A stretch of DNA of 37,123 nucleotides, taken from a virus. Its lineage: Duplodnaviria > Heunggongvirae > Uroviricota > Caudoviricetes. The translations under genes and the position numbers were made by a program. The stretch covers positions 1 to 37,123 of the IMG/VR virus record IMGVR_UViG_2713896795_000003. One strand, written 5' to 3'. The stretch's first letter is position 1. Each line of letters opens with the position of its first letter. Under the pieces are notes generated by a model, which worked only from the letters and a program-made list of their open reading frames with translations, had not been told where the DNA came from and made no database searches. This document shows positions 5,530 through 37,123 of the stretch, in pieces.

Positions 5530-5534
5530 ACAAC

Positions 5535-5570: not shown

Positions 5571-5610
5571 AGGAAATACTTACATATGGTTCGTGCAAAC
5601 AAACGCAACG
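5565..5610 (-). promoter_or_regulatory. pRE-like CII-activated promoter (TTGC-N6-TTGC)
   Basis: Minus strand TTGCGTTTGTTTGC (plus 5595-5608) overlapping cII start, as in lambda pRE. Confidence 0.45.
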
Positions 5611-5879: not shown

Positions 5880-5900
5880 GGTCATTACTGGATCAATCCA
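5824..5900 (-). ncRNA. oop: oop-like antisense RNA (placed by analogy with lambda)
   Basis: cII 3-prime end and the following ~30 bp resemble the lambda oop/pO region; minus-strand GC-rich hairpin followed by U-run near 5825-5850; coordinates approximate. Confidence 0.4.
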
Positions 5901-5911
5901 CAGGAGTCATT

Positions 5912-6058
5912 ATGACAAAACAACTCAGTCCTTACCAGGACAAAATTCACAAACACATACTACGTGATCGCTTCCTGTCCAGCTTCAAGCAGCCTGGTCG
6001 ATTCCGGGCTGAGTTGGAAAAAGTGAAGCTGATGCAGAAGGAGAAAGGTCATGAGTAA
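5912..6058 (+). CDS. Small hypothetical protein (48 aa)
   Basis: Hand-translated [21 protein letters not shown]...; AGGAG SD 7 nt before ATG; stop overlaps O-like gene start. Confidence 0.45.
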
Positions 6059-6911
6059 TCTTGCAACCGTAACACATTTAAGGCCTTCACAACGGCCTGT
6101 GGAGCGTCGTGTGGCAGAAGTTGAAGATGGTTATACCCGTCTTGCAAATGCCCTGTATGAAGAGCTTATCGGCGCAGATTTAACGAAAAATCAGAGCAAG
6201 GTTGCCCACGCCATATGCCGTAAAACATACGGCTACGGTAAAAAGATGGATCGCATTTCTGATAGTCAGTTAGCTCAAATTACCAGGCTGCCAAGACAGA
6301 AGGTAAACAAGGCCAAGAATGAGCTTATCGCGATGAAGGTTATCCTTCGCGAAGGCCAGCAAATCGGGCCTAACAAGAACATCGAAGAATGGCAAATCGA
6401 AGGGTGTCACTACTCTGGTGATAATGTCACTGCATTGGTGACAAAAAGTGTCACCAAAACGGTGACAGCGCTGTCACCAAAACAGGGACACACAAAAGAA
6501 ACTATTACAAAAGAAAAAAGAAATAATAAAAACACTATGTCCGAAAGTGTTCGGACGGAGTGTGAAAAATCATCTGACCGTCACGAAGAAACCGACAAGG
6601 CATTCGAGGAAATATTCTGGTGTGCAGGCATGCGGAAAGCCGGGAAGAAAAACGCGGCTTCGGCATTCAGAACACAGTTCAGGGAATGGCGTAAAACTAC
6701 CAGGGGTACGGCAAGCGAGTTTGCCACGATGCTGGCAGAAGACATCGCATGCAGGAATGGTAAGCAGTTCGGATTCGACAGGTTGTTACCATCGAGCTAC
6801 CTGAACGGTCAGCGCTGGAACGACGAGAAGCCAGAAACTATTCAACCACAATCCAAACCATCATCCGCAATCACCGTATCGAAAACTGGCTACGTGTTTT
6901 TCGACAGGTGA
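6051..6911 (+). CDS. Replication initiator, lambda O-like N-terminal domain
   Basis: N-terminal [36 protein letters not shown]...[13 protein letters not shown]...[11 protein letters not shown] resembles lambda O; iterons lie inside the gene; C-terminal half unlike lambda O. Confidence 0.8.
6405..6535. repeat. Replication origin: four TGTCAC(C)-N5/6-GGTGACA iterons plus AT-rich tract
   Basis: Repeats at 6405-6490 (e.g. TGTCACCAAAACGGTGACA) followed by ACAAAAGAAACTATTACAAAAGAAAAAAGAAATAATAAAAACAC, inside the O-like gene as in ori-lambda. Confidence 0.7.
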
Positions 6912-7018
6912 ACCATGAAATCAAAAATCAAATCGCTACTGGTCGCTGGTTATAACCACGGCTGGTTAAGTATTTCGTTTGTCGATTTCTGGTTTAAAAA
7001 TCTCAATCTGAGGGAATC

Positions 7019-8899
7019 ATGACGCCAAGTGAACTTAGCGACCTGCTTTGGGCGCAGGTTGACAGGGTGGCTCCGCACCTGTTGCCAAACGGCAAGAAAG
7101 AGGGGCATGAGTGGGTTGCCGGTAACGTCAACGGTGACAAGGGAAACAGCCTTAAGGTCAACCTTAGCGGCAAGAAAAAATGGGCTGATTTCGCTGAGGG
7201 AGACGGCGGTGACATGCTTGATTTGTGGATGGCATGTCGTGGAATTAACCTGCATCAGGCTATGCAGGAAGCGAAAGCCTTTCTCGGAATCAAGGATGAC
7301 GATCACCATTTCGATGCCAAACGTGAGAAGAAATTCTCCAGACCTGACCGCAAGAAAATCGCCCGCTACGTTACCAGAACAGAATCCCATCTTGAGTACC
7401 TGCAATCGCGTGGCATATCGCCAGAAGTCGTAAAGCGCTACGAGGTTGTCAGCGGCAAGGTGTGGAATGGAGAACGAGAACTTGATGCACTGGTGCTTCC
7501 GTACAAACGCGATGGTGAGTTGTTGCAGGTCAAGCGAATCAGCACTGAGCGCCCGGACGGGAAGAAAGTCATTATGGCAGAAGGTGATTGCGAACCTTGT
7601 CTGTTCGGATGGCAGGCTCTGGACGCTGGCGTGAGGGCGGTTGTACTTTGCGAAGGCGAAATTGATTGTATGAGCTATGCGCAATACGGCATCTCGGCGT
7701 TATCCGTGCCGTTTGGTGGCGGGAAAGGCGCTAAGCAACAGTGGATTGAGTTTGAGTATCACAACCTCGACAGGTTTGAGGAAATATTCATCTCGATGGA
7801 CGTTGATGATGTTGGTCGTGAAGCCGCAAGGGAAATCGCAAGCCGACTCGGTGAACATCGTTGCCGTCTTGTTACTCTGCCGTACAAAGACATCAACGAA
7901 TGCCTGATGAACGGTGTTACCGAGGATGAAATCTGGCAGTACATCGGCACGGCATCCTACTTCGATCCTGAAGAACTCTACAGCGCGCGAGAGTTTTACC
8001 AGGACACTATCAACGCTTTCTACGGCAAGCAGCAGTATCTGTTTAATCCACCGTGGGAATCTCTGGCAGATAAATTCCAGTTCCGTGAGGCCGAGTTGAC
8101 GCTGGTCAATGGTGTGAACGGTCACGGAAAAACGGAGGTTGTCGGGCATATGGCGCTTGAGGCAATGCGTCAGGGTGTGAAGACGTGCATCGCGTCACTT
8201 GAGCTGAAGCCAGGCATTCTCCTTAAGCGACTTACCCGTCAGGCGACGTGCTGCAAGATGCCGCCAGTGCTGGAAATTGACTCTGCATTTAAATTTTATG
8301 ACGAAAGACTTTGGGTGTTTGGCCTGACCGGAACGGCGAAAGCCGACAGGCTGATCGAAATATTCGACTACGCTCGCCGCCGATACGGCATCCAGTTATT
8401 CATCATCGACAGCCTGATGAAATGTGGCATAGGCGACGATGACTATAACGGGCAGAAGGCGTTTGTTGACTCGATTTGCGATTTCAAAAACAAAACAAAC
8501 TCCCACGTCATTCTCGTTACTCACTCGCGAAAAGGTGACAGCGAAGAAAAACCAACCGGGAAAATGGACGTAAAAGGCTCTGGAGCGATAACAGACCTGA
8601 CAGACAACCTTTTCATCATCTGGCGTAACAAGGCTCGCGAGAGAGCGTTACAGAGAGTTCAGAGTGGTGAAAAGATGTCAGAGAAGGACGAACAGCTACT
8701 GGCATCTCCGGCATCTGTTTTGATGCTTGAAAAGCAACGTAACGGCGAAGGTTGGGAAGGTGGTGTCCCGTTGTTCCTTGACGAGCAATCGCACCAGTTC
8801 CTGCAACTTGAATCAGGATCGCCATATAGCTACATCGCCAATATGCCGAAATCGGAATATGACGAGGCGTGGCGACAGGAAAACGTGACGGAGTATTAA
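7019..8899 (+). CDS. Bifunctional DNA primase/helicase (Toprim + DnaB-like ATPase)
   Basis: 626 aa; Toprim-like VVLCEGEIDCMSYAQYG and DVDDVGREAA; Walker A GVNGHGKT; Walker B LFIIDSL. Confidence 0.8.
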   Translation: MTPSELSDLLWAQVDRVAPHLLPNGKKEGHEWVAGNVNGDKGNSLKVNLSGKKKWADFAEGDGGDMLDLWMACRGINLHQAMQEAKAFLGIKDDDHHFDAKREKKFSRPDRKKIARYVTRTESHLEYLQSRGISPEVVKRYEVVSGKVWNGERELDALVLPYKRDGELLQVKRISTERPDGKKVIMAEGDCEPCLFGWQALDAGVRAVVLCEGEIDCMSYAQYGISALSVPFGGGKGAKQQWIEFEYHNLDRFEEIFISMDVDDVGREAAREIASRLGEHRCRLVTLPYKDINECLMNGVTEDEIWQYIGTASYFDPEELYSAREFYQDTINAFYGKQQYLFNPPWESLADKFQFREAELTLVNGVNGHGKTEVVGHMALEAMRQGVKTCIASLELKPGILLKRLTRQATCCKMPPVLEIDSAFKFYDERLWVFGLTGTAKADRLIEIFDYARRRYGIQLFIIDSLMKCGIGDDDYNGQKAFVDSICDFKNKTNSHVILVTHSRKGDSEEKPTGKMDVKGSGAITDLTDNLFIIWRNKARERALQRVQSGEKMSEKDEQLLASPASVLMLEKQRNGEGWEGGVPLFLDEQSHQFLQLESGSPYSYIANMPKSEYDEAWRQENVTEY

Positions 8900-13032: not shown

Positions 13033-13496
13033 GCAGAGTAACCGCGATTATCTCCGCTCTGGTTATCTGCATCATCGTCTGCCTGTCATGGGCTGTTAAT
13101 CATTACCGTGATAACGCCATGACCTACAAAGAGCAGCTCGATAAAAAAGTCAGTGAGATGAAGCAGGCGACTGCCACCATTACTGACATGCAGCGGCGCC
13201 AGCGTACTGCTGATGCACTTGATGCTAAATACACGAAGGAGTTAGCTGATGCGAAAGCTGAAAATGATGCTCTTCGGCGCAAGCTTGATAATGGTGGCAG
13301 GGTGCTCGTCAAAGGAAAATGCCCTGTGCCATCCTCAGCCGAAACCTCCAGCACCTCCGGCATGGGCAATGATGCCACCGTCGAACTCTCTCCAGTTGCT
13401 GGACGAAACGTTCTCGGTATTCGGGACGGAATCATCAGCGACCAAACAGCACTGAGAACGCTTCAGGAATACATCAGGACGCAATGCCTTCGATGA
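13029..13496 (+). CDS. Rz: i-spanin Rz
   Basis: N-terminal [32 protein letters not shown] like lambda Rz; C-terminal half divergent. Confidence 0.8.
13249..13455 (+). CDS. Rz1: o-spanin Rz1 (lipoprotein) embedded in Rz in the +1 frame
   Basis: [22 protein letters not shown]... with lipobox VAGC and proline-rich stretch; AAGGAG SD 8 nt upstream. Confidence 0.7.
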
Positions 13497-13669
13497 TAGC
13501 GATAATTTTACTCATCATCCTTCACATCTGGCTCTGTAGACAGGGTGGTGATCACTTCTGGAGTGAATCCAGATTAAACATCTCATTGCTGATGCTTGAT
13601 ATTGAGCATCTGGCGCGCGGTAAGGGGCTGCGTTGAGATAAGAGCCAGTAATTACAAACACCAGGATTT

Positions 13670-13695
13670 AGCCTCGCATTCGCGGGGCTTTTTTA
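13670..13695 (+). terminator. Candidate intrinsic terminator between Rz and KilA-N gene
   Basis: Hairpin AGCCTCGC-attc-GCGGGGCT followed by TTTTTT. Confidence 0.4.
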
Positions 13696-13840
13696 CATCT
13701 GCAGTAAACCGCGCATCGCAGCGCGTAACAATCCCGAGTCTTTCAGAAAGCTGAGCCTGAGAATTGCCGTATATGGTGGCGACCATCTCGGGGCGGCTTT
13801 TCTGTGCGAACAGGCTCATCTTTCTAAAAGGTAAGACGCT

Positions 13841-14362
13841 ATGAATATCGTTCCACTAAATTACAAAGGCGAACCTATCCGCTTCAATACTGATGGCTGG
13901 ATTAATGCCACTGATATTGCAAAACGTTTCGGGAAGCGTCTGGATCACTGGTTGTCCAACGCTGAAACTCTCGAATACGTTAGAGCTCTGGATGAGGTTT
14001 ATTCAGGTGAACCATCGAAAATTCTACATACCCGTGATTCCGGGTATGTAAAAACAAGCAAGGCACGAAAGGACAGGGGTGGCGGAACATGGCTGCATCC
14101 AAAGTTATCAGTTGCCTTTGCAAGATGGTGCGATCCGAAATTCTCCGTATGGTGCGACCTGCACATTGATAGTCTGCTTCGCGGTGAACTGACTGAGCAG
14201 CAGAAATATGAGCAAGCATGTCGCATTCGCGATGACCGGAAATCAAAAGCCAGCAATGGGGCAAGAGAGATGGCTCGCTGGCGATGGGATAAGCCGGTTA
14301 TTGAAGCAAATGTCGAGTACTGGCGCGAGCAACTGCAGTTGACTCTCGATATTGCGTGCTGA
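13841..14362 (+). CDS. KilA-N domain protein
   Basis: N-terminal NYKGEPIRFNTDGWINATDIAKRFGKRLDHWL resembles KilA-N/antirepressor-type DNA-binding domain; position after the lysis cassette is typical. Confidence 0.5.
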   Translation: MNIVPLNYKGEPIRFNTDGWINATDIAKRFGKRLDHWLSNAETLEYVRALDEVYSGEPSKILHTRDSGYVKTSKARKDRGGGTWLHPKLSVAFARWCDPKFSVWCDLHIDSLLRGELTEQQKYEQACRIRDDRKSKASNGAREMARWRWDKPVIEANVEYWREQLQLTLDIAC

Positions 14363-14720
14363 TGGCAAACGCAAAACTGCGTTATCGGAAAAATCAAAGC
14401 ATTACGAGAACTGAGCAACGGCTATCCATTACAAAGCCCATCAACGGGTGGGCTTGATAATGAAACCGGAATTTATTCTAGGTAACCAGTTACGGCAGTA
14501 CCACGAAGCAACCCAAGCCAGTAAGTGGGGGAAATAACACTGGCAGCCACTGAAAGATGAACCTCCAGCCTTATGGCAAAAAAGATTCTTTGTGGTGGCG
14601 GACTGATGGAAAGACATCGGTTATTGCAGAGGCCATTCAATGAATGGTCTCGACAATGGCTTATACCCTACACGGGATAACTTAACTGATATCCCTTTTA
14701 ACGGATAAACGGAGCCAACA

Positions 14721-14927
14721 ATGGCAGAGATTATTCCCATGACTGAAGAACAGAAATTCCAGTTAGAGATTTACAAGCTGGTCATGAACCAGAACGCAGC
14801 CGCAGAAGAAGCATTTCAATTCATTGGCACTGACGAACTGAAGCTTGAGCTATTCAAAATTCACTTCCAGTCAGGCGGCGCTAATTCAGATATCACGACC
14901 CGCACTATCGAAGCGGTACGTAAATAG
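14721..14927 (+). CDS. Hypothetical small protein (68 aa)
   Basis: ATG with GGAG SD; upstream of terminase small subunit. Confidence 0.5.
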   Translation: MAEIIPMTEEQKFQLEIYKLVMNQNAAAEEAFQFIGTDELKLELFKIHFQSGGANSDITTRTIEAVRK

Positions 14928-15042
14928 AAGGAAGCGTTAGACCTGTTCACTACCGGAGCGTAAACATGGCAACTCAAGGTTTCGACAACCCATCCAAATT
15001 CCGTGATGAATGGGATAAGCAAGCAGAAGGGAAATAATCAAT

Positions 15043-15468
15043 ATGGCGACTGAGAAAAAGAATGTCGGTCGCCCTTCGGATTACCTGCCGGAGGTGGCTG
15101 ATGATATCTGTGCGCTTCTTGCCTCCGGGGAAAGTCTGGTTAAGGTTTGCAAGCGCCCCGGCATGCCAGCAAAGGCTACTGTATTTCGCTGGCTGTCAGA
15201 GCATGACGAATTTAGAGACAAGTACGCGAAGGCAACTGAGGCGCGAGCTGATTCTATTTTCGAAGAGATATTCGAAATTGCTGACACTGCGATTCCAGAT
15301 GCCGCCGAGGTGGCAAAGGCAAGACTTCGCGTTGATACCCGCAAATGGGCGCTGGCCAGAATGAATCCCCGTAAGTATGGCGACAAGGTAACTAATGAGC
15401 TTGTCGGCAAAGACGGCGGCGCAATCCAGATTGAAACATCACCGATGAGCACTCTATTCGGAAAATGA
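15043..15468 (+). CDS. Terminase small subunit (Sf6 gp1-like, HTH)
   Basis: MATEKKNVGRPSDYLPEVADDICALLASGESLVKVCKRPGMPAKATVFRWL... resembles Sf6-type small terminase from memory; stop overlaps large-subunit start. Confidence 0.75.
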   Translation: MATEKKNVGRPSDYLPEVADDICALLASGESLVKVCKRPGMPAKATVFRWLSEHDEFRDKYAKATEARADSIFEEIFEIADTAIPDAAEVAKARLRVDTRKWALARMNPRKYGDKVTNELVGKDGGAIQIETSPMSTLFGK

Positions 15469-16880
15469 CCTCGATTAATCCTATCTTTGAACCGTTCATT
15501 GAGGCGCATCGCTACAAAGTCGCCAAAGGCGGTCGAGGTAGCGGCAAATCATGGGCAATTGCGAGGCTGCTTGTTGAAGCGGCGCGTCGTCAGCCAGTGC
15601 GTATTCTCTGCGCTCGTGAACTGCAAAACAGTATCAGCGATTCGGTAATCCGGTTGCTTGAAGATACCATCGAGCGTGAAGGGTATTCGGCTGAGTTTGA
15701 AATTCAGCGTTCAATGATTCGTCATCTCGGAACGAATGCTGAATTCATGTTCTACGGCATCAAAAACAACCCGACGAAGATTAAATCGCTCGAAGGCATT
15801 GATATCTGCTGGGTGGAAGAAGCGGAAGCGGTAACGAAGGAATCATGGGATATCCTGATACCAACCATCCGCAAGCCGTTTTCCGAAATATGGGTGAGCT
15901 TTAACCCGAAAAACATCCTCGACGATACCTATCAGAGATTCGTTGTAAATCCTCCCGATGATATTTGCCTGCTGACGGTGAACTACACCGACAACCCGCA
16001 CTTTCCTGAAGTTCTCCGTCTGGAGATGGAAGAGTGCAAACGCAGAAATCCGACATTGTATCGTCACATCTGGCTTGGTGAGCCAGTAAGCGCAAGTGAT
16101 ATGGCAATCATCAAACGTGAATGGCTTGAAGCCGCAACCGATGCGCACAAGAAACTCGGATGGAAAGCGAAGGGCGCGGTTGTCTCTGCGCATGACCCGT
16201 CAGATACAGGACCGGATGCTAAAGGTTACGCATCGCGTCACGGTTCGGTAGTTAAGCGCATTGCCGAAGGTCTGCTGATGGACATCAACGAGGGTGCTGA
16301 CTGGGCTACTTCGCTGGCGATTGAAGACGGCGCTGACCATTACCTGTGGGATGGTGATGGTGTTGGTGCTGGGCTACGCAGACAGACAACGGAAGCGTTC
16401 TCCGGCAAGAAAATCACCGCCACGATGTTCAAGGGTAGCGAATCGCCATTCGATGAAGATGCACCATATCAGGCCGGAGCATGGGCCGATGAAGTCGTAC
16501 AGGGCGACAACGTTCGCACTATTGGCGATGTGTTCCGCAATAAGCGAGCGCAATTCTATTACGCGCTGGCTGACAGGCTGTATCTGACATATCGGGCGGT
16601 TGTTCACGGTGAGTATGCAGACCCCGACGACATGCTGAGTTTCGACAAAGAAGCGATAGGCGAGAAGATGCTGGAGAAGCTGTTTGCAGAACTGACGCAG
16701 ATTCAGCGCAAATTCAATAACAACGGGAAGCTGGAGCTAATGACTAAGGTCGAAATGAAGCAGAAGCTCGGTATTCCATCTCCTAACCTGGCTGATGCGC
16801 TGATGATGTGTATGCATTGCCCAGAGTCGGCTGCGCAACCCGACTATTCCAGTTACTCAATTCCTTGTGGTGTAGGTTGA
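15465..16880 (+). CDS. Terminase large subunit
   Basis: 471 aa; Walker A KGGRGSGKS; nuclease-domain acidic motifs; resembles Sf6 gp2 from memory. Confidence 0.9.
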   Translation: MTSINPIFEPFIEAHRYKVAKGGRGSGKSWAIARLLVEAARRQPVRILCARELQNSISDSVIRLLEDTIEREGYSAEFEIQRSMIRHLGTNAEFMFYGIKNNPTKIKSLEGIDICWVEEAEAVTKESWDILIPTIRKPFSEIWVSFNPKNILDDTYQRFVVNPPDDICLLTVNYTDNPHFPEVLRLEMEECKRRNPTLYRHIWLGEPVSASDMAIIKREWLEAATDAHKKLGWKAKGAVVSAHDPSDTGPDAKGYASRHGSVVKRIAEGLLMDINEGADWATSLAIEDGADHYLWDGDGVGAGLRRQTTEAFSGKKITATMFKGSESPFDEDAPYQAGAWADEVVQGDNVRTIGDVFRNKRAQFYYALADRLYLTYRAVVHGEYADPDDMLSFDKEAIGEKMLEKLFAELTQIQRKFNNNGKLELMTKVEMKQKLGIPSPNLADALMMCMHCPESAAQPDYSSYSIPCGVG

Positions 16881-16881
16881 T

Positions 16882-19080
16882 ATGGCAGAAAAAAAGATGA
16901 CTGACTGGCATCGCAAGGTGCTGTGCAACTTTGATAATGCCTGGTCAGCAACGCAGGATATGCGTGAGCAGATTATTGAGGCTCAACGTTTCGTCCGGGT
17001 ATCCGGCGCACAGTGGGAAGGCAGCACAAACGCTGGTTACTCATTTGATGAAGGCAGGTTTGAGCATTACCCGCGCTTTGAACTGAATAAGATTGCCCGT
17101 GAATGTGATCGCATCATTGGCGAGTATCGACAGAATCGCATAAGCGTTAAATTCAGGCCGAAGGACGATAAGGCATCGGAAGCGTTAGCCGAAAAGATGA
17201 ACGGCAAATTCCGCGCTGACTATCAGGAAACATCCGGTGGCGAAGCGTGTGATAACGCATTTGATGATGCTGTAACGGGCGGATTCGGTTGTTTCCGCAT
17301 GTGTGCCGATTACGAAGATGAAATGGATCCGAGTAACGAGCAGCGACGCATCAGTCTTCTTCCTGTTTACGACCCAGCGACATGCGTCTTCTTCGATCAG
17401 GACAGCAAGCAATATGACCGCTCTGATGCTATGTGGGCTATGGAAATGTTCTCCATGACGCCTAAAGCGTTCGAGGCTGAATACCCTGATTCCATCGCTG
17501 CAAGTCTTTCTCGTGATGACACTGGCACTCAATATGACTGGTCAACTCCTGATGCTATCTATGTTGGTCGCTACTATGAAGTCCGCATAGAGAAGGTGAA
17601 GCTCACGGCATGGCGTAACCCTGTTAGCGGAGAAACGGCAATCTATGATGAAGAGCAAATCAAAGATATTGTTGACGAGCTAACCGATGGTGCATTCGAG
17701 CTGATCGGTGAGAGGACAGTGAAGAAACGCAGAGTTTATTGCGGTCTTCTGTCTGGCGCTGAATGGCTGGAAGAACCGAAGCGTATTCCGGGTGAACATA
17801 TTCCTCTCATCCCGGTATATGGGCGTCGCTCATTTGTTGATAATCAGGAGCGAATCGAAGGCCACGCAGCAAAAGCGATGGATGCGCAGCGTCTTGAGAA
17901 CCTGATGGTTTCCATGATTGCAGATAACGCTACTCAGGCTGGCGGTGATGGCATTCCTATCGTGGATGTTGATTTCATTCCCGGTCCATTAATGAATCAC
18001 TGGGCAGAGAGGAATAAGAAAAGACCTGCAGTTCTTCCCATGACCAGCAAGAAGGACAAAAACGGAACGGTCATTTCAGAGGCTCAGGTTGCTGGCTGGA
18101 CACCTCCGACACAAATGCCTCCTGCTCTTGCCGGGCTATTGCAGTACACCGGAACGGCTATTCAGCAAATTACAGGTGCGTCGCAGCTTGAGAACATGCC
18201 GAGCAACGTCGCTACCGATACCGTTGATAGCATCTTTAATCGGATGGACACGCAGTCCTATATCTACATGGACAACATGGCTAAATCCATGCGCCGTGCT
18301 GGCGTCGTGTGGCTTTCTATGGCTCGTGAAGTCTATGGCAGCGATACGCCAATGCGCATCGTTAATGAGGATGGCAGCGATGACGTGGCGCTGATGACTG
18401 GTGAAGTGGTTGACCGTCAGACAGGGCAGGTTATCGCGCTTAACGACCTTTCGCAGGGTAACTATGAAGTGACTGTCGATGTCGGTCAGTCGTTCGCTAC
18501 TCGCCGTGATGCAACGGTTAAGTCGTTACTTTCCATGCTGGCACTTATCCCACCAGGAACGCCGAAGCACGACCTTGTATCGTCGATGATTCTCGAAAAT
18601 ATGGACGGCGAAGGGATGGACGACCTTAAAGAATACAACCGCAATCAGTTGCTTCTGTCTGGCGTTATCAAGCCGAGAACGCCTGAAGAACAGCAGATGG
18701 TTGAGCAGGCGAAACAACAACAGGCCAGTCAGCCGGATCCGGCTATGGTTGCAGCGCAAGGTCAGCTTCTGGCTGGTCAGGCTGAATTGCAGAAAGCGCA
18801 GAACGAACAGGCAGCCATTCAGGTTAAAGCATTCCAGGCACAGACTGATGCTCAGGTTGCTGCGGCAAATGTTGTGAAAATCCTCGCATCTGCCGATAGT
18901 CAGCAGAAATCTGATATCCGCGAGGCTCTGAAACTTCTCGGACAGTTCCAGCAACAGCAAGGAGACAATGCCCGTGCTGATGCAGAGCTTGTCCTGAAGA
19001 GTCAGGCGCAGGGCCATGCGCAGCGCATGGACATCAACAGCATCCTGCAAAAATCAACTCAGCAACAACCACAGCAGTAA
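16882..19080 (+). CDS. Portal protein (P22 gp1-like)
   Basis: 732 aa; C-terminal QDPAMVAAQGQLLAGQAELQKAQNEQ... and ARADAELVLKSQAQGHAQRMDINSILQ resemble the P22 portal barrel region. Confidence 0.9.
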   Translation: MAEKKMTDWHRKVLCNFDNAWSATQDMREQIIEAQRFVRVSGAQWEGSTNAGYSFDEGRFEHYPRFELNKIARECDRIIGEYRQNRISVKFRPKDDKASEALAEKMNGKFRADYQETSGGEACDNAFDDAVTGGFGCFRMCADYEDEMDPSNEQRRISLLPVYDPATCVFFDQDSKQYDRSDAMWAMEMFSMTPKAFEAEYPDSIAASLSRDDTGTQYDWSTPDAIYVGRYYEVRIEKVKLTAWRNPVSGETAIYDEEQIKDIVDELTDGAFELIGERTVKKRRVYCGLLSGAEWLEEPKRIPGEHIPLIPVYGRRSFVDNQERIEGHAAKAMDAQRLENLMVSMIADNATQAGGDGIPIVDVDFIPGPLMNHWAERNKKRPAVLPMTSKKDKNGTVISEAQVAGWTPPTQMPPALAGLLQYTGTAIQQITGASQLENMPSNVATDTVDSIFNRMDTQSYIYMDNMAKSMRRAGVVWLSMAREVYGSDTPMRIVNEDGSDDVALMTGEVVDRQTGQVIALNDLSQGNYEVTVDVGQSFATRRDATVKSLLSMLALIPPGTPKHDLVSSMILENMDGEGMDDLKEYNRNQLLLSGVIKPRTPEEQQMVEQAKQQQASQPDPAMVAAQGQLLAGQAELQKAQNEQAAIQVKAFQAQTDAQVAAANVVKILASADSQQKSDIREALKLLGQFQQQQGDNARADAELVLKSQAQGHAQRMDINSILQKSTQQQPQQ

Positions 19081-29993: not shown

Positions 29994-30242
29994 TTATTTA
30001 TCCTTACCATACATGGTCTTTAGCGTCTCAACATCGTGTTCAAGATCTATCAATCGTGATGCTATAGTTGCAAGGTCTAGTGCTTGAATGTGTTTATTTT
30101 TTTCGGTCCACGCTTCAAGTGCCGCGACCATCTCAGCATTTAATGAACGAGAATTAGCCTCAGCAAGTTCAATAAGACGTTCCTTTATCTCTACAGGAAG
30201 CCTCAGATTCACTTGAGGGTTTTTGTACTTACGATCAGACAT
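29994..30242 (-). CDS. mnt: Mnt-like ribbon-helix-helix repressor
   Basis: 82 aa; RHH motif VNLRLPVEIKERLIELAEANSRSLNAEMVAAL resembles P22 Mnt, plus C-terminal helical tail; divergent from arc. Confidence 0.65.
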   Translation of the reverse strand: MSDRKYKNPQVNLRLPVEIKERLIELAEANSRSLNAEMVAALEAWTEKNKHIQALDLATIASRLIDLEHDVETLKTMYGKDK

Positions 30243-30263
30243 CGCCGCATCCTGAATAATTTT

Positions 30264-30335
30264 TTACCACAGGATATGTAGGTATCTATTGACTATCAAT
30301 GCGTACCTAAATACTATGTATGCGTACCACATACA
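30264..30335. promoter_or_regulatory. Divergent overlapping promoters (Pmnt leftward, Pant rightward) with palindromic operators
   Basis: Pant -35 TTGACT 30289-30294 / -10 TACTAT 30312-30317; Pmnt -35 TTGATA (plus 30294-30299) / -10 TATCCT (plus 30271-30276); nested palindrome TAGGTA...ATTGA-cta-TCAAT...TACCTA 30279-30309; palindrome TGTATG-N7-CATACA 30317-30335. Confidence 0.5.
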
Positions 30336-30347
30336 ACGGAGGATACA

Positions 30348-30488
30348 ATGAAGGTTAAAACACTGCGTATGCCAGAGAAGCTAGAAAAAATTCTTGAAGA
30401 AAAAGCAAAGGAAGAGTGTCGCTCATTCAGTGCAGAAGTAATTAAACGGGTGCTGGACAGCCTGAAGAGGGAGGGGGTAACAGTGTGA
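30348..30488 (+). CDS. arc: Arc-like ribbon-helix-helix repressor (46 aa)
   Basis: Hand-translated MKVKTLRMPEKLEKILEEKAKEECRSFSAEVIKRVLDSLKREGVTV resembles P22 Arc; GGAGG SD 7 nt before ATG. Confidence 0.6.
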   Translation: MKVKTLRMPEKLEKILEEKAKEECRSFSAEVIKRVLDSLKREGVTV

Positions 30489-30658
30489 TTTGCTTGGATG
30501 CAGTAGTCAAAGAGATTGTGCTTACCATTTTGAGACCAAATTTTGTTCATGGCGAATCATTTGGCGCGAACGAAAAATTGAGAAGAGAAAGAGTATTCAG
30601 TGGCAAGCGCACGTTTTCAGAAGTGATGCTTGATGCGGCAAAGAAATCAAAACAGTGA
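30485..30658 (+). CDS. Hypothetical small ORF (57 codons, GTG start)
   Basis: GTG overlaps arc stop (GTGTGA) with G-rich SD; no ATG alternative; may instead be non-coding spacer. Confidence 0.2.
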   Translation: MICLDAVVKEIVLTILRPNFVHGESFGANEKLRRERVFSGKRTFSEVMLDAAKKSKQ

Positions 30659-30721
30659 AGCCCCAACTGCGGGAACAGTCAGGGCTTCGGTATCGTAAAA
30701 CCACGCATAGGAATTAACGAC
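30645..30721 (-). ncRNA. sar: Candidate sar-like antisense RNA covering the ant translation initiation region
   Basis: Minus-strand promoter -35 TTGATA (plus 30751-30756), 17-nt spacer, -10 TATACT (plus 30728-30733); minus-strand hairpin GAAGCCC...GGGCTTC (30657-30688) followed by U-rich tract. Confidence 0.4.
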
Positions 30722-31645
30722 ATGAAAAGTATAGCAACAGCAGTATCTACTATCAATGTACCATTCCACGGCGCAGAGCTTTATGTTGTCAATCACAACG
30801 GCGAACCGTACACCCCAATGAAACCTATCGTTGAGGGAATGGGGCTAGACTGGAAATCTCAACATAAGAAGATTTCTCAACGCTTCTCGAAGGGTATGGT
30901 GGAAATCACCATACCTTCTGCCGGTGGGGTGCAAGCCATGATTTGTATGGCTTTACGAAAATTGGCAGCTTGGTTGAACAGCATCAGTCCTAACAAAGTC
31001 CGCCCTGAAATCCGCGACAAGGTAATCCAGTATCAGGAAGAGTGTGACGATGTGCTCTATGAGTACTGGACTAAAGGCCATGTGGTTAACCCGCGCAAAG
31101 CTAAAAAGGCGTTGCCGGGGAAAATCACCACTGAACAGCAGGAAGCCATTAAACAACTCGTCATGAGTCGTGGTCAGTCTCTGCCAAAAGAAAAACAGGC
31201 GAAGGCAATGATTACCATGTGGTCGTCACTGAAATCCCATTTTGGATGTTCGTACAAAGAAATCAGTGAGGAGCAGTTTACAGAAGCACTGTCACTTGCA
31301 GCTCGAGTTCCACTTGAAGGTGAGTTCATTGGCAAACAAGAGAAGAAAGCAAACGAGCTTTCTGCAAAAGAAGCAAACAGCCTTGTATGGCTATGGGATT
31401 ATGCCAACCGCTCACAGGCATTATTCCGCGAACTTTATCCGGCATTAAAACAAATTCAATCGAACTATTCCGGCAGATGTCATGACTGCGGTTATGAGTT
31501 CTCCCGTATTATCGATATAGCGAGAGACGTTTTAATCAATCACTCACGAGATGTTGATATCAATGAGCCAGACGGACCAACGAATCTTTCCGCATGGATG
31601 AGACTTAAGAATAAAGAATTACCTCCTTCAGTACATAACTACTGA
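30722..31645 (+). CDS. ant: Antirepressor Ant
   Basis: 307 aa; N-terminal region ...LYVVNHNGEPYTPMKPIVEGMGLDWKSQ...LRKLAAWLNSISPNKVRPEIRDKVIQYQEECDDVLYEYW resembles P22 Ant from memory; follows mnt/arc. Confidence 0.8.
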   Translation: MKSIATAVSTINVPFHGAELYVVNHNGEPYTPMKPIVEGMGLDWKSQHKKISQRFSKGMVEITIPSAGGVQAMICMALRKLAAWLNSISPNKVRPEIRDKVIQYQEECDDVLYEYWTKGHVVNPRKAKKALPGKITTEQQEAIKQLVMSRGQSLPKEKQAKAMITMWSSLKSHFGCSYKEISEEQFTEALSLAARVPLEGEFIGKQEKKANELSAKEANSLVWLWDYANRSQALFRELYPALKQIQSNYSGRCHDCGYEFSRIIDIARDVLINHSRDVDINEPDGPTNLSAWMRLKNKELPPSVHNY

Positions 31646-31662
31646 CAGATAACCAACGCAAC

Positions 31663-31688
31663 AACCCAGCTTCGGCTGGGTTTTTTTA
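31663..31688 (+). terminator. Intrinsic terminator after ant
   Basis: CCCAGCttcgGCTGGG followed by TTTTTTTA. Confidence 0.75.
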
Positions 31689-31698
31689 TGCCCAAAAT

Positions 31699-31786
31699 TC
31701 ACCGTAGCTACTCAGCGGCTATGGCCTTGAGAGATAGCACTACACAAAAAGTGTAGTGCAAAAAGCAAACAAATACTCACCGTAGC
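31699..31786. repeat. Direct-repeat / inverted-repeat / direct-repeat element
   Basis: TCACCGTAGC at 31699-31708 and 31777-31786 flanking a perfect 9-bp-stem hairpin GCACTACAC-aaaaa-GTGTAGTGC (31737-31759). Confidence 0.4.
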
Positions 31787-32102
31787 CACGCTGCAGCGAT
31801 TCCTTTTATCTGGAGCAGATTAAATGACAGATATTATAAATAGGAATTGTTATTTAATAATATTTGAAAATGAAAATCATGGACGATAGGAATAAAAGTA
31901 GTACTTGTTATTTTTAAGTGACGCATTAAACGCATAAAGCATATGTCTGTTGATCAAGATTCTTGCTTGTTGTAAAATAATTGTTTTGTTCATGTTGCAT
32001 AGTTTTAAAATGGATAGAAGATTATTTTTCAAAACAATTGCATCTTTGTCTGCAGTCATTCCGTTTTCTTCAATATCTAAATTTTCAAACAGGATGACTA
32101 AT

Positions 32103-34808
32103 ATGCCTGAGATAACTCCAAATGTTGTAATTGGGATGCCTTCTCAACTCTTCACTATGGCGCGTTCTTTTAAAGCCGTAGCTAATGGCAAAATTTATAT
32201 CGGTAAAATTGACACTGACCCGGTAAATCCTGAAAACCAGATTCAGGTTTATGTGGAGAACGAAGACGGCTCTCACGTTCCTGTTTCTCAACCAATCATC
32301 ATTAACGCTGCTGGATATCCGGTATATAACGGACAGATTGCCAAATTCGTAACTGTGCAAGGCCATTCTATGGCTGTTTACGATGCTTATGGCACTCAGC
32401 AGTTTTATTTTCCAAATGTATTAAAATACGATCCAGATCAGTTTGGCCCAGACTTCAAAGAGCAGTTATCTCAATCAGGAGCATACATTAATGATGATTC
32501 AAAAGGTGATGCATTAATTGGTGTAAGGCAGCCATTTACCGGGGCTGTAACTATAACTCAGCATGAAAACAATGCTCTTTTCTTAAATGTAAAACAATTT
32601 GGAGCAATTGGGGATGGGAAATATCATCCATTATCTGAGTGGTTTTCTTCAATTTCTGAAGCAAAATCCTTATATCCTTTTGTTGACTCATTATCTCAGT
32701 CAATAGACTGGGCCGCGTGGCAAGCTGCCCTTAACACAGGAAAGGTTATTTATGGTACTGATAATGCGTATGTAATAACGGATACGTTAACACCTGTTTC
32801 TGGTGGTGGGATAATTTGTCTTGGTGTGGGCAAATGGGTCTCAGGATATACTGCAACATTTGCTCCTGATATTACCACAGGAACCACATTCCTGATGTAC
32901 GGGGTAGGAAATAAAAAATATACTGTAGATTGTGTTTCTAATATGGATGTTAGTGGTGGTGTGGTTTCTAATCCATCTTCCGAAGACCCGTATACAACAA
33001 CGGCACCTGCGTCATCATATGATTTATTGGATTTTACTAACGGTGATGCTAATGGGGCTATAAGAGCCACGCTTAAACCATTCTCTGCCGCAATATTGAT
33101 GCCTGAGACAGGATGTGTTCGTCTTGAGAACTTTCGTATTGTTCCATATTTCAATGGGCTGGATGGTTATAAAGACATTGCAAATACCGGTCTTGGCGAT
33201 GAGTGGGATGTAGGTATTTGGTCACGTGCTTCTTTTGGCAATGAATACCGCAATTTGCAGGTGGTTGGATACTGGCGCAAGACGGCACTTTTAAAAACGA
33301 ACATTCCTGTATCTGGCACGCTGGCCGCTCAGGGCGAGGATGAAAACTATTATCACTGTAGATTCCAAGGATTCAAGGGTGTTTCGATCCGCGCCCATGA
33401 TGTATTCCGAATTACAGCGGTAACGTCCAGCACTATCGAAATCCCATGGTCAGCAAGCCACACCTTCGAAACGTCCGGGGTTTTAAGATCTGGAGGCAGG
33501 AATTTCACTTATTCAGGATTATCCGTATCCGGTGATAAGTTAGTATTTACTGGAGTGTCTAACGCTTCTGAGGCAACAGTAGGTTCTACTATACGGCGAA
33601 ATGACATAGATAACTTTGGTATGGCGGGAACGCAATTTTTCGATTGCTACATTACCAGCCTGTATCACCACACACATCTGCTTGCCACATCGCAATACCT
33701 GTCTCAACCATTCAGCCGACCATCAGAGTGTATGGAGGTTTCAGGGGAACCAGTTCGCGGTGTACAGGTACATGCAGGAACCATTCAGGGATGGGATGAT
33801 GTTCTTATTCATCTACATGACTGTGGAAATATGAACTTTTACAGTACATATTTCGAAAGCCAGCAAGCATATGTAACTATAAATGGTGGTAATGCTATTG
33901 GTTATGGAGCACGTATGATAGCTTCCCGGCAATCAACAAGCTCATTACCATATGCAGCAGGGAATACTCGAGTGCTTAGAATGGTCGGGTGCTCTGAAGG
34001 CAATGGCGTTGACTGGGGGCATGTATTTAACAACTATACAGGAGGAAGATATAATTCTGGAGACGGTGTATTTAACCCCCGCGATGCATTTATAGACCAT
34101 AAATCTCTTCCTGAGCAGTCAGGAGGTGAGTCAAGACTCGTATCACAAAAAGGAAATGCCAGAGTAGTATGTGGTGTTGGTAAAACTGTACTGCTTGGAC
34201 CAACGTCAGGAGATTGTAATTTACAGAGTAATACTGGAAGTTTAAATATTAGAAGTGGGATAAGAGTAAGAATCGGTCACGCTGATGGAACAGACTGGTG
34301 GTTGGCAGATGCTAATAAAATAGCTCCTGTTGATGATAATGTTAAAGCTATTGGACAGCCATCAAACAGATGCTCTGTTATTTATGCAGGAACCGGGTCA
34401 ATCAATACATCAGATGAAACTCTTAAAACAAGATATGATATTCTTAATGCAGAGCGTGATGCCGCTATTGAAATAAAGTCAGTCATCTATAAATTTAAAT
34501 TTAATGACTCAATTAATCACAAAGGAATTGAGTCGTCCAGGTATCATTTTGGCGTTGGCGCTCAAACCGTAGGGGATATTCTTAGAAAGCATGGTTTAAA
34601 CCCTGAGCAATATGCTTTTTGGTGTTACGATGAATGGCCTGACGTATGGGATGAAGAGGTGATAACTGAAGAGAGCACAGATCCTGATACAGGTGAGAAA
34701 ATTTATTCTCAATATAAAACAGGAGATATGATTCTTGTAAAAAAAGCAGGAGGACGCTACGGAATTCGTTATGACGAATTGGCTATGTTTATATTAATGG
34801 CAATGTAG
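32103..34808 (+). CDS. Tailspike: P22-type head-binding domain + beta-helix receptor-binding/depolymerase domain + C-terminal S74-type chaperone domain
   Basis: N-terminus [46 protein letters not shown]... resembles P22 tailspike head-binding domain; central QFGAIGDG pectate-lyase-like motif; C-terminal SDETLK motif; AGGA 8 nt before ATG 32103 (alternative ATG 32094). Confidence 0.85.
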
Positions 34809-34826
34809 TTGCAATAAATGCAGTAT

Positions 34827-34858
34827 ATCCCGCATAAAAAATGCGGGATTGTTTTTAT
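34827..34858 (+). terminator. Intrinsic terminator after tailspike
   Basis: ATCCCGCAT-aaaaa-ATGCGGGAT followed by TGTTTTTAT. Confidence 0.75.
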
Positions 34859-35149
34859 CTGGTGTATTTATGAATTTTAAGTAAATTTTAGTATTGATTA
34901 CTGCATCGCAGTTAAAGCCTCATTACCTATGAGGCAAAACTGAGACACACAAGGCTTTGCACTGGATTGCAAGGCTTTGTGCTATTCGATTGTGGTTGAG
35001 GCTGATCACTCTACCTTCTCATCAAGCCAATCCGCCCACCATTGCATCATTTCTCTGCGCTTATCGAGATACTGAGCATGGTTGTAAATTCAGCAAACGA
35101 CGTAATGTGTTTGACAAAAAATTAGCGCAAGAAGACAAAAAGTCACCTT

Positions 35150-35326
35150 GCGCTAATGCTCTGTTACAGGTCACTAATACCATCTAAGTGGTTGATTCAT
35201 AGTGACTGGATATGTTGTGTTTTGTAGCATTGTGTAGTCTATTTTTTAGACTAAAAATATTGTAATGCATTGATATTAATGGTTTTTAATGTTTCACGTT
35301 CAGCTTTTTTATACTAACTTGAGCGA
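35150..35326. other. attR: lambda-type P arm plus 15-bp core GCTTTTTTATACTAA (35312-35326)
   Basis: Core matches the lambda att common core; left flank CTGTTACAGGTCACTAATACCATCTAAGT...GTTGATTCATAGTGACTG resembles lambda attP P arm; right flank CTTGAGCGAAACGGGAAGG resembles E. coli attB B-prime arm (from memory). Confidence 0.8.
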
Positions 35327-35407
35327 AACGGGAAGGTAAAAAGACAAAAAGTTGTTTTTAATACCTTTAAGTGATACCAGATGGCATTGCGCCATCTGGC
35401 AGAGTGA

Positions 35408-35992: not shown

Positions 35993-37123
35993 ATGAAACG
36001 CGCATATAAATACCGGTTTTACCCGACAACTGAGCAGGCTGAGCTTTTAGCTCAGACGTTTGGCTGTGTGCGCTTCGTCTACAATTCCATCCTTCGTTGG
36101 CGTACCGATGCGTACTACGAGCGAAAAGAAAAGATCGGTTATCTACAGGCCAACGCTCGCCTTACGGCGCTCAAAAAAGAGCCTGAATACATATGGCTGA
36201 ATGATGTTTCCTGCGTTCCCCTCCAGCAGTCGTTGCGCCACCAACAAGCCGCCTTTGCTAACTTCTTTGCCGGACGAGCTGCATATCCGGCTTTCAAAAG
36301 CAAACGGCACAAACAGGTGGCTGAGTTCACTGCCAGCGCGTTTAAACACCGTGACGGCGAGTTGTATATAGCAAAGAGCAAGTCGCCGCTGGATGTTCGC
36401 TGGAGTCGAGAATTACCATCTGCGCCGTCAACCGTTACCATTTCCAGAGATAGCGCTGGCAGGTACTTTGTTTCCTGCCTGTGTGAGTTTGAACCTGTAT
36501 CAATGCCTGTTACCGCTAAAACGGTCGGCATTGATGTGGGCTTAAAAGATTTATTCGTCACCGATACCGGATTCAAAACCGACAATCCCCGCCACACCGC
36601 TAAATATGCGAAGCGATTAACGCTGCTACAGCGACGTTTAAGCAGGAAGCAAAAAGGCTCAAGAAACCGTATTAAAGCCCGCTTAAAGGTCGCCCGACTC
36701 CACGCGAAAATCGCCGATTGCCGGATGGACAATCTGCACAAGTTGTCCCGCAAACTGATTAACGAAAACCAAGTTGTTTGCGTCGAATCCCTCAAGGTGA
36801 AAAACATGATCCGCAACCCGAAGCTGTCTAAAGCAATAGCTGACGCAGGCTGGAGCGAACTTGTTCGCCAGCTCCAGTACAAAGGCAAATGGGCCGGGCG
36901 GTCAGTGGTCGCCATTGACCAGTATTTACCGTCCTCAAAATGCTGTAGTTGCTGCGGTTTCACCATGCAAAAAATGCCTCTTAATGTTCGTAAATGGCAC
37001 TGCCCTGAATGCGGCGCAGACCATGATCGCGACATTAACGCGGCACGTAATATTAAAGCTGCCGGGCTGGCAGTGTTAGCCCACGGAGAGCCTGTAAACC
37101 CTGAATCGCAGCACGCGGCTTAG
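35993..37123 (+). CDS. tnpB: TnpB (IS200/IS605-family OrfB, RuvC-like RNA-guided nuclease family)
   Basis: 376 aa; RuvC-I TVGIDVGLKD, RuvC-II VVCVESL, RuvC-III CGADHDRDINAARNI; zinc-finger CSCCG...CPECG; no tnpA in window. Confidence 0.85.
   Translation: MKRAYKYRFYPTTEQAELLAQTFGCVRFVYNSILRWRTDAYYERKEKIGYLQANARLTALKKEPEYIWLNDVSCVPLQQSLRHQQAAFANFFAGRAAYPAFKSKRHKQVAEFTASAFKHRDGELYIAKSKSPLDVRWSRELPSAPSTVTISRDSAGRYFVSCLCEFEPVSMPVTAKTVGIDVGLKDLFVTDTGFKTDNPRHTAKYAKRLTLLQRRLSRKQKGSRNRIKARLKVARLHAKIADCRMDNLHKLSRKLINENQVVCVESLKVKNMIRNPKLSKAIADAGWSELVRQLQYKGKWAGRSVVAIDQYLPSSKCCSCCGFTMQKMPLNVRKWHCPECGADHDRDINAARNIKAAGLAVLAHGEPVNPESQHAA

What the first reader, a model, noticed from the sequence alone, without database searches (positions are those of the whole stretch)
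32103..34808. Three-module tailspike with autoproteolytic-type C-terminal chaperone domain
A P22-like head-binding N-terminus is fused to a long beta-helix-type domain (QFGAIGDG motif) and a ~130-aa C-terminal domain starting at an SDETLK motif (Ser codon 34410-34412), the signature of S74 intramolecular-chaperone self-cleavage. This differs from the P22, Sf6 and HK620 tailspike architectures as I remember them and implies a distinct glycan receptor, probably a capsule or O-antigen depolymerase.
Basis: partly seen in the sequence, partly recalled or inferred. Interest (0 to 1): 0.5.

Follow-up and report, generated by a model that had tools for sequence, protein, structure and literature searches.

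The report
Prophage tailspike with self-cleaving chaperone
This is the tail-spike gene of a P22-like prophage, built like the known CUS-3 spike (P22-type anchor, sugar-cutting beta-helix, self-removing folding domain), and it probably digests the K13/K20/K23-type E. coli capsule; it is a new member of a known kind.

Summary
ORF 32103-34808 encodes a 901-aa protein with three modules:
- a P22-type head-binding domain (aa 1-113, Pfam E 1.5e-65);
- a 132-aa Peptidase_S74 chaperone that starts at Ser770 of SDETLK.

All five residues of the T5/K1F self-cleavage mechanism are conserved: D745, R756, T769, S770 and K775.

The architecture is not new. The CUS-3 K1 endosialidase tailspike has the same three-module plan. 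PHROG 1171 matches this protein end to end, and RefSeq already calls near-identical (98.5-99.1% nt) prophage genes "phage tailspike protein". None of these is characterised.

The receptor module plus chaperone also sits on two other virion adapters: a 991-aa prophage fibre (about 98% aa) and the T7-like phage YZ1 (72%).

New inference: 11 of the 15 complete E. coli genomes carrying this receptor module also carry the krkA-type kps region 2, the K13/K20/K23 Rib-Kdo capsule locus. The background is 54 of 5411 genomes. Their O types differ (O86, O102). The spike is therefore most likely a K13/K20/K23-type capsule depolymerase. This is inferred, not shown.

Verdict: new member of a known kind, modest interest.

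The parts
32091..32094 (+). Shine-Dalgarno-like AGGA, 8 nt upstream of the start codon
   Evidence: read from the sequence
32103..34808 (+). tailspike gene: 901 aa, 98.4 kDa precursor
   Evidence: PHROG 1171 'tail spike protein' matches aa 3-901, E 3e-252
32103..32441 (+). P22-type head-binding (virion-attachment) domain, aa 1-113
   Evidence: Pfam PF09008 E 1.5e-65; matches Sf6 gp14 (7sg7) over aa 1-175 (E 2.2e-86; 79.7% identity over aa 1-172 by tblastn); 86% identical over aa 1-125 to CUS-3
32493..34409 (+). exchangeable receptor module, aa 131-769. N-terminal cap, right-handed beta-helix (about aa 215-665), then a low-confidence stalk (about aa 670-769) expected to fold only in the trimer
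32595..32618 (+). QFGAIGDG motif (aa 165-172) at the N-terminal cap of the beta-helix
   Evidence: this region aligns to LKA1 gp49, phi297 tailspike, GH55 glucanase, phi29 gp12 and AlgE4
34305..34409 (+). last stalk segment before the cleavage site (aa 735-769). Carries D745, R756 and T769 of the cleavage site
   Evidence: Pfam End_tail_spike positions 126-160, 22.8 bits, below cut-off; alignment to T5 pb1 and K1F read against PMC4690869
34410..34808 (+). C-terminal intramolecular chaperone (Peptidase_S74), aa 770-901 plus stop. Predicted to be released as a 15.3 kDa fragment
   Evidence: (3gud TM 0.74)
34410..34427 (+). SDETLK: predicted nucleophile Ser770 and general base Lys775. Scissile bond Thr769|Ser770
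   Evidence: aligned to S911(A)/K916 of K1F and S1264(A)/K1269 of T5 (mechanism)
34827..34849 (+). terminator-like hairpin followed by a T run, 19 nt after the stop codon
31663..31682 (+). terminator-like hairpin after the antirepressor gene, upstream of the tailspike
35303..35317 (+). lambda-type att core GCTTTTTTATACTAA. This is the right prophage end (attR), so the tailspike is the last prophage gene
   Evidence: preceding 380 nt are 91.5% identical to phage 434 attP; ybhB follows

Best explanation
The gene encodes the tailspike of a P22-like temperate phage, integrated at the lambda attachment site. It has three modules. (1) Residues 1-113 form the P22/Sf6-type trimeric head-binding domain that plugs the spike into the tail hub. 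(2) Residues 131-769 form an exchangeable receptor module: a right-handed parallel beta-helix that binds and most likely cleaves a surface polysaccharide, followed by a short stalk. (3) Residues 770-901 form an intramolecular chaperone of the endosialidase/T5-fibre type. The chaperone is expected to drive trimerisation and folding of the C-terminal stalk. It then cuts itself off between Thr769 and Ser770, using Ser770 activated by Lys775, with Arg756 of a neighbouring chain and Asp745 acting as sensors of a correctly folded trimer. That would leave an 83-kDa mature spike and a 15-kDa released fragment. The substrate is most likely the group 2 capsule with the ->3)-beta-Ribf-(1->7)-beta-Kdop-(2-> backbone (K13/K20/K23, made by KrkA). 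Shown here: domain composition, fold, conservation of the cleavage residues, modular sharing with other phages, and the capsule-locus association. Inferred: actual cleavage, enzymatic activity and chemistry, and the receptor.
Against: Pfam S74 is only 1 bit above its cut-off for this single sequence. No Pfam, NCBIfam or sequence-level PDB match covers the body of the beta-helix, so the chemistry (hydrolase or lyase, which bond) is unknown. Four of the 15 carrier genomes lack the krkA locus. The association is not corrected for shared ancestry, and the window's own host capsule cannot be seen. Lysogeny shows past infection, not the present receptor. The stalk (aa 670-769) is modelled with low confidence because only a monomer could be predicted.
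Confidence: 0.7

Rival explanations
1. The spike targets an O antigen, like P22, Sf6 and HK620, and the capsule link is a lineage artefact.
For: Most characterised P22-like spikes are O-antigen endoglycosidases (established knowledge; review text). Four of 15 carriers lack krkA. Only two lysogens were O-typed.
Against: The two O-typed lysogens differ (O86 and O102) yet share the krkA locus at about 100% identity. No other carrier of the receptor module appears among the 60 listed of 80 O86 genomes or the 60 listed of 107 O102 genomes.
Confidence: 0.12
2. The spike targets another surface glycan that merely co-occurs with krkA-type strains, for example a different capsule backbone or the poly-Kdo linker common to group 2 capsules.
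For: The evidence is correlative only. The central-domain family is very large, with conserved putative catalytic residues across members that must have many substrates.
Against: A receptor common to all group 2 capsules would not produce a roughly 270-fold enrichment for one region-2 type that occurs in 1.2% of genomes.
Confidence: 0.1
3. The beta-helix is a non-catalytic adhesin that binds the glycan without cleaving it.
For: No catalytic family assignment was obtained. Some beta-helix fibres are binding-only (general knowledge).
Against: Invariant or nearly invariant Asp, Glu, Arg and His residues (D369, R430, D433, H522, E545, R552, E585) are kept across 69 relatives at 26-76% identity, as expected of an active site. 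The closest folds are enzymes.
Confidence: 0.08
4. The C-terminal domain is kept in the mature spike, as a distal binding or stabilising domain, and is not cleaved off.
For: Cleavage was not observed here. The Pfam score is marginal.
Against: All five mechanistic residues are conserved and aligned with proteins where cleavage is proven. The chaperone fold is recovered.
Confidence: 0.06

Closest known systems
CUS-3 endosialidase tailspike (SiaK1; P22-like prophage of E. coli K1 RS218; Stummeyer et al. 2006)
   Same: Same three-module plan: Head_binding + catalytic body + Peptidase_S74. The N-terminal 125 aa are 86% identical and the chaperone is 36% identical, with TSDGTLKT against TSDETLKT. 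The prophage backbone is 95% identical over 56% of 25 kb. The gene order mnt-ant-tailspike at the prophage end is the same.
   Different: The CUS-3 body is a sialidase beta-propeller plus beta-barrel and stalk (End_beta_propel and others). Here the body is a right-handed beta-helix with no endosialidase catalytic domains. The receptor is K1 polysialic acid in CUS-3 and probably the Rib-Kdo capsule here. CUS-3 integrates at a different attachment site (its attL/attR cores are; argW is from memory), this prophage at att-lambda.
P22 gp9, Sf6 gp14 and HK620 tailspikes
   Same: P22-type head-binding domain. Sf6 similarity extends to aa 175. Right-handed beta-helix body. Same role and position in the genome.
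   Different: Those spikes have no S74 domain and keep their C-termini. Their PDB chains match only the N-terminal part of this protein. They are O-antigen endoglycosidases.
K1F endosialidase CIMCD, T5 pb1 L-shaped fibre, GA-1/phi29 appendage and Klebsiella Kp7 gp51: the intramolecular chaperone family (MEROPS S74; Schwarzer 2007, Schulz 2010, Garcia-Doval 2015)
   Same: Homologous C-terminal domain with the Ser-Lys dyad and the Asp/Arg/Thr sensor residues.
   Different: Different upstream receptor domains and different virion adapters.
Uncharacterised carriers of the same receptor module: the 991-aa 'tail fiber domain-containing protein' of prophage YDC107_2, and the Kayfunavirus YZ1 fibre
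   Same: aa 137-901 are 97.8% identical (YDC107_2) and aa 131-901 are 72% identical (YZ1).
   Different: The N-terminal adapters differ. YZ1 has Phage_T7_tail + Tail_spike_N. The YDC107_2 N-terminus has no Pfam match.

Membership tests
P22-like tailspike (Lederbergvirus-type gp9) | N-terminal Head_binding domain (PF09008) | tested here: met
   E 1.5e-65, full-length match 1-113/113; PDB matches to P22, Sf6 and CUS-3-type N-termini
P22-like tailspike (Lederbergvirus-type gp9) | Encoded in a P22-like genome downstream of the immI region (mnt/arc/ant) at the end of the late region | tested here: met
P22-like tailspike (Lederbergvirus-type gp9) | Right-handed parallel beta-helix receptor domain | tested here: met
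Peptidase S74 / C-terminal intramolecular chaperone domain | Profile match to PF13884 above the gathering score | tested here: met
   23.0 bits against 22, which is marginal. Supported by phmmer matches to 3gw6, 4uw8, 3gud and 7y5s and by family-profile E 1e-33 to 1e-48
Peptidase S74 / C-terminal intramolecular chaperone domain | Catalytic Ser and Lys five residues apart (S-x4-K), plus the Asp/Arg/Thr residues of the stalk | tested here: met
   S770, K775, D745, R756, T769 align to the T5 and K1F residues
Peptidase S74 / C-terminal intramolecular chaperone domain | Chaperone fold (helical core, beta-hairpin tentacle) at the extreme C-terminus | tested here: met
   Foldseek matches 3gw6, 4uw8 and 3gud, TM 0.74 to 3gud; pLDDT above 90 for aa 780-901
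Peptidase S74 / C-terminal intramolecular chaperone domain | Autoproteolytic release after trimer folding | not testable with these tools
   needs protein expression and S770A/K775A mutants
Endosialidase (GH58) tailspike | Sialidase beta-propeller and beta-barrel catalytic domains | tested here: not met
   No End_beta_propel, End_beta_barrel or End_N_terminal match. Only the last 35 positions of End_tail_spike match, below cut-off. CUS-3 scores 775 bits on the same test. The 'putative endo-N-acetylneuraminidase' label on P0027 is therefore not supported.
Pectate_lyase_3 / pectin-lyase-fold enzymes | Pfam or sequence-profile match across the catalytic beta-helix | tested here: inconclusive
   No Pfam hit. 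The family profile matches only the N-terminal cap (profile positions about 100-200) of LKA1 gp49, phi297 tailspike, GH55, phi29 gp12 and AlgE4. The fold match is clear, but no catalytic family can be assigned.
K13/K20/K23 capsule depolymerase (functional class; no sequence-defined member found) | Carried by phages whose hosts make the KrkA-dependent Rib-Kdo capsule | tested here: met
   11 of 15 carrier genomes against 54 of 5411 others have the krkA region 2. This is a correlation only.
K13/K20/K23 capsule depolymerase (functional class; no sequence-defined member found) | Degrades purified K13/K20/K23 polysaccharide | not testable with these tools
   biochemical assay needed

The most novel reading that the evidence does not exclude
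The receptor module (aa 131-769) would be the first sequence-defined depolymerase for the Kdo-ribose capsules K13/K20/K23 of extra-intestinal pathogenic E. coli. It would be a beta-helix enzyme cleaving a beta-Kdo or beta-ribofuranosyl linkage, and so could found a new glycoside-hydrolase family. It moves as a cassette, together with its own chaperone, between at least three virion platforms: P22-like, the YDC107_2-type prophage and T7-like Kayfunavirus.
Probability: 0.45. Interest if true: 0.5.

Novelty: new member of a known kind. Interest (0 to 1): 0.3.

Why it matters
The architecture adds nothing conceptually: it repeats the CUS-3/K1F story of swapping a receptor module plus chaperone between phage chassis. 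The practical value lies in the predicted specificity. K13/K20/K23-type capsules occur in multidrug-resistant extra-intestinal lineages; here they are seen in O102, O86 and O25b:H4 genomes. I found no sequence-defined depolymerase for them in the searchable literature. If confirmed, the protein would be a capsule-typing and capsule-stripping reagent. It would also be an entry point to an uncharacterised enzyme family of more than 1300 sequence clusters.

Tried and rejected
- **O-antigen hypothesis.** I located the rfb clusters of two lysogens: O86 in CH10508 and O102 in YDC107. I then searched each cluster across 5426 genomes. The two O types differ and the other carriers were not among the listed rows, so this hypothesis was dropped in favour of capsule.
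- **The search for homologous proteins on the central domain.** The 120 rows listed were all at least 98% identical, which was useless for an alignment. The 50%-cluster library was used instead.
- **NCBIfam.** No meaningful hit.
- **Pfam.** No pectate-lyase or other catalytic family.
- **Family profile against PDB sequences.** Only the N-terminal cap of the helix and the chaperone match. The catalytic body has no solved relative detectable by sequence.
- **Foldseek GH110 alpha-galactosidase hits.** These were tempting because O86 carries a blood-group-B-like epitope (from memory). TM scores are only 0.17-0.23 and the O types differ between lysogens, so I treated them as generic beta-helix similarity.
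- **Literature.** Searches for phage YZ1, LF31P3, P22-like plus S74, and E. coli K13 depolymerases found no characterisation of this protein or of close relatives.
- **OZ547246.** I first counted this genome as a twelfth krkA carrier. The bookkeeping (69 records = 15 + 54; 65 krkA genomes) shows that only 11 carry both.

Full report
**1. The observation**

The + strand carries an open frame from ATG 32103 to the stop at 34806-34808, encoding 901 aa.
- AGGA sits 8 nt upstream of the start. The mechanical ORF list extends the frame to TTG 31950, and there is another ATG at 32094. The alignment with P22, Sf6 and CUS-3 N-termini favours 32103.
- Terminator-like hairpins lie after the upstream antirepressor gene (31663-31682) and 19 nt after the tailspike stop (34827-34849).

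**2. The three modules**

*Head-binding domain.* Pfam finds Head_binding over aa 1-113 (E 1.5e-65). It also finds Peptidase_S74 over aa 770-832 (23.0 bits, cut-off 22) and the last 35 positions of End_tail_spike at aa 735-769 (22.8 bits, below the cut-off of 25). The N-terminus matches the Sf6 tailspike as seen in situ on the virion (7sg7) through residue 175 (E 2.2e-86). It also matches the P22 head-binding domain structures.

*Chaperone.* The marginal Pfam S74 score is backed by direct matches of aa 721-901 to proteins where the domain has been solved: Kp7 gp51 (E 6.5e-23), K1F endosialidase chaperone 3gw6 (1.9e-14), T5 pb1 4uw8 (5.8e-12) and GA-1 appendage 3gud (2.5e-9). A profile built from 69 family members raises these to E 1e-33 to 1e-48.

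*Beta-helix body.* No Pfam or NCBIfam model covers aa 176-734.
- An AlphaFold2 model of aa 120-901, built on an alignment of 68 diverse relatives, has mean pLDDT 88.7.
- The segment between helix and chaperone (aa 670-769) has pLDDT 50-73. That is expected for an intertwined stalk that only exists in the trimer. It is also the part the chaperone is known to fold in K1F and T5.

**3. The cleavage site**

For T5 pb1, the published mechanism uses Ser1264 as the scissile and nucleophilic residue and Lys1269 to activate it. Thr1263 lies at the kink. Arg1250 from a neighbouring chain and Asp1239 sense the correctly folded trimer (PMC4690869).

In the HMMER alignments these five positions correspond to S770, K775, T769, R756 and D745 here, and all are identical. 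The K1F and T5 crystal sequences carry the engineered Ala at the Ser position, which fixes the register.

Among the 69 aligned relatives, the Ser, Asp and Lys of the motif are present in 41-42 of the 52-57 that have a residue at those columns.

The prediction is cleavage of Thr769|Ser770, giving an 83.1-kDa mature spike and a 15.3-kDa released fragment. This is an inference from conservation, not an observation.

**4. Genomic context**

The window is a P22-like prophage. 25 kb of it is 95-97% identical over 56-66% of its length to E212, vB_EcoP-720R6, Kapi1, phiv205-1 and CUS-3.
- Upstream of the spike lie an Mnt/Arc-type repressor gene (29994-30242, minus strand) and an antirepressor gene (30722-31645).
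- Downstream come about 490 nt of lambda/434-type attP P-arm (91.5% identical to phage 434) and the exact lambda core GCTTTTTTATACTAA at 35303-35317. Then follow ybhB and an IS200/IS605-type tnpB.
- The spike is therefore the last gene before attR at the lambda attachment site.
- Its G+C content (0.41, 0.43 and 0.37 for the three modules) is below that of the virion genes (0.49), consistent with acquisition from elsewhere.

**5. Is it already known?**

The architecture is known.
- The tailspike of CUS-3, a P22-like prophage of E. coli K1, scores Head_binding + endosialidase domains + Peptidase_S74 in the same test.
- It is 86% identical to this protein in the first 125 aa and 36% in the chaperone, including the TSDxTLKT site.
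- A review describes it as the textbook case of swapping catalytic modules on a conserved P22-type N-terminus (PMC5380687).
- PHROG 1171 ("tail spike protein") matches aa 3-901 at E 3e-252.

The gene itself is also in the databases.
- Near-identical prophage genes (98.5-99.1% nt) in complete E. coli genomes are annotated "phage tailspike protein".
- 901-aa proteins whose central domain is 100% identical exist in public collections.
- None of these is characterised. The nearest entries in the phage collection are the YDC107_2 prophage fibre (97.8% over aa 137-901, "putative phage tail-fibre protein") and the Kayfunavirus YZ1 fibre (72% over aa 131-901, "hypothetical protein"). Next come Vectrevirus spikes at about 41%.

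**6. Modularity**

Fifteen of 5426 complete E. coli genomes hold the receptor module.
- Eight have it on the P22-type N-terminus.
- Seven have it on a 991-aa protein with a different N-terminus, in a different prophage that has a GH19 endolysin and sits next to yfgI.
- YZ1 carries it behind a T7-tail-fibre N-terminus.

Conversely, the chaperone module occurs at about 90% nt identity in 20 further genomes. There it sits on P22-type spikes of 821 aa with a different central domain. Two of these (04-00955, ECE170) are at the same att-lambda flank as this window. Recombination therefore happens at both module boundaries.

The central domain belongs to a large family: 1365 clusters at E<=1e-3 and 147 at E<=1e-30 in the 50%-identity library. 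G389, R430 and E585 are invariant across the 69 aligned members. D369, D433, H522, E545, R552, W391/R392 and Q422 are nearly invariant. That pattern fits an enzyme active site.

**7. The receptor**

*O antigen.* I first tested the O-antigen idea. Lysogen CH10508 carries an O86 cluster and YDC107 an O102 cluster. No other carrier shows up among the 60 listed of 80 O86 genomes or the 60 listed of 107 O102 genomes. O antigen is not the shared feature.

*Capsule locus.* YDC107 has a group 2 kps locus. Its serotype-specific region 2 holds only a hexapeptide O-acetyltransferase and a 1114-aa "HAD family hydrolase". A 2026 paper shows that the 1113-aa "HAD phosphatase" in region 2 of the K13 type strain NCTC9022 is KrkA. 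KrkA is the single polymerase that makes ->3)-beta-Ribf-(1->7)-beta-Kdop-(2->, the common backbone of K13, K20 and K23 (PMC12887879). NCTC9022 itself is among the matches, at 97.1% nt.

*Counts.*
- The locus occurs in 65 of 5426 genomes.
- A chimeric query (receptor module + krkA fragment) returned 69 records, which is 15 with the receptor module plus 54 with krkA only.
- So 11 of the 15 carriers have krkA. All 11 are named: YDC107, EC21Z-151, EC21Z-144, HS4, E22, SBF22, CH10508, 702/18, CS5L, UPEC_U013 and DLL7555.
- That is 73% against 1.0% elsewhere: odds ratio 273, Fisher p 4e-19.

*Breadth of the link.*
- It holds for both virion platforms: 6 of 8 P22-type spikes and 5 of 7 of the 991-aa fibre.
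- It holds for both locus variants. Nine carriers have the variant with the CatB-like acetyltransferase. UPEC_U013 and DLL7555 have the NCTC9022-like variant.
- It holds across at least two O types and three integration sites.
- UPEC_U013 shares the window's att-lambda/tnpB junction.
- None of the 20 sibling-spike genomes appears among the 60 krkA genomes listed, which serves as a negative control for the chassis and the chaperone.

*Caveats.* The test ignores shared ancestry. Four carriers lack the locus, though divergent krkA clusters described in the paper would escape megablast. The host of this window cannot be inspected.

I conclude, with about 60% confidence, that the spike is a K13/K20/K23-type capsule depolymerase. 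From memory, phage-borne glycanases acting on K13 and K20 capsules and on beta-Kdo linkages were described biochemically in the 1980s-90s (Altmann, Nimmich and co-workers) without sequences. I could not check this in the held library, and searches found no sequence-defined E. coli enzyme.

**8. Verdict**

- Its sense of novelty does not: this is the CUS-3/K1F design with a different, beta-helical receptor module.
- What this analysis adds is the cassette behaviour of receptor module plus chaperone across three phage chassis, and a specific, testable receptor prediction.
- Novelty: new member of a known kind. Interest: 0.3.

Noticed in passing
window 34809-35330: The P22-like prophage ends in a lambda/434-type attP P-arm (91.5% identical to phage 434) and the exact lambda core at 35303-35317. 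A P22-type virion module is therefore combined with a lambda-type integration module at att-lambda, next to ybhB. The P22-like phage JEP4 has the same arm.
   Followed up: partly
window 35993-37123: An IS200/IS605-family TnpB (RNA-guided endonuclease) gene runs off the window end, directly beside ybhB where bioA is expected (from memory). Only 38 of 5426 complete E. coli genomes cover at least 80% of this flank. The best match is only 97.8% identical, so the host may be a divergent Escherichia lineage.
   Followed up: partly
E. coli genomes (e.g. W4, M160133, 04-00955, ECE170): Twenty genomes carry P22-type tailspikes of about 821 aa. They share this spike's N-terminal domain and its chaperone at about 90% nt identity but have an unrelated central domain. 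Two of them sit at the same att-lambda flank. Their receptor is unknown.
   Followed up: no
genomes SBF22, DLL7555, 702/18, OZ547246: These genomes hold two copies of the receptor module, presumably on two prophages. In 702/18 one spike gene is interrupted by an IS3 element.
   Followed up: no
L001 (CH10508) 5585-8688, compared with window 29994-32103: In CH10508 the same tailspike follows the Arc-family gene directly, with no antirepressor gene, and the prophage sits at argW/intS. The window has a 307-aa antirepressor gene and 457 nt of AT-rich spacer before the spike.
   Followed up: no
window 31700-32102: AT-rich spacer (G+C about 0.3 by eye) between the ant terminator and the spike. It contains a 60-aa antisense ORF (31877-32059) and an in-frame upstream extension of the spike ORF to TTG 31950. 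Both are probably non-coding. The spacer may correspond to the 'boundary sequences' annotated in CUS-3.
   Followed up: no
L010 (YDC107) 13293-18138; The krkA capsule locus comes in two forms: 49 genomes with a CatB-related O-acetyltransferase, and 16 NCTC9022-like genomes (K13_K23) that match from the krkA gene onwards at 97.1% identity. Whether the first form is K20 or an unnamed type was not resolved. It includes an O25b:H4 strain and O102 strains (one is labelled O102:H6).
   Followed up: partly
L005 (CH10508) 5507-6905: The O86 wzy gene of CH10508 is annotated as frameshifted with an internal stop. This could be an assembly error or a rough (O-antigen-negative) strain, which would fit a capsule-dependent phage.
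   Followed up: no
protein P0027: One source names the 991-aa YDC107 homologue 'putative endo-N-acetylneuraminidase'. That name rests only on the shared chaperone and stalk end and is not supported, because no sialidase domains are present.
   Followed up: yes
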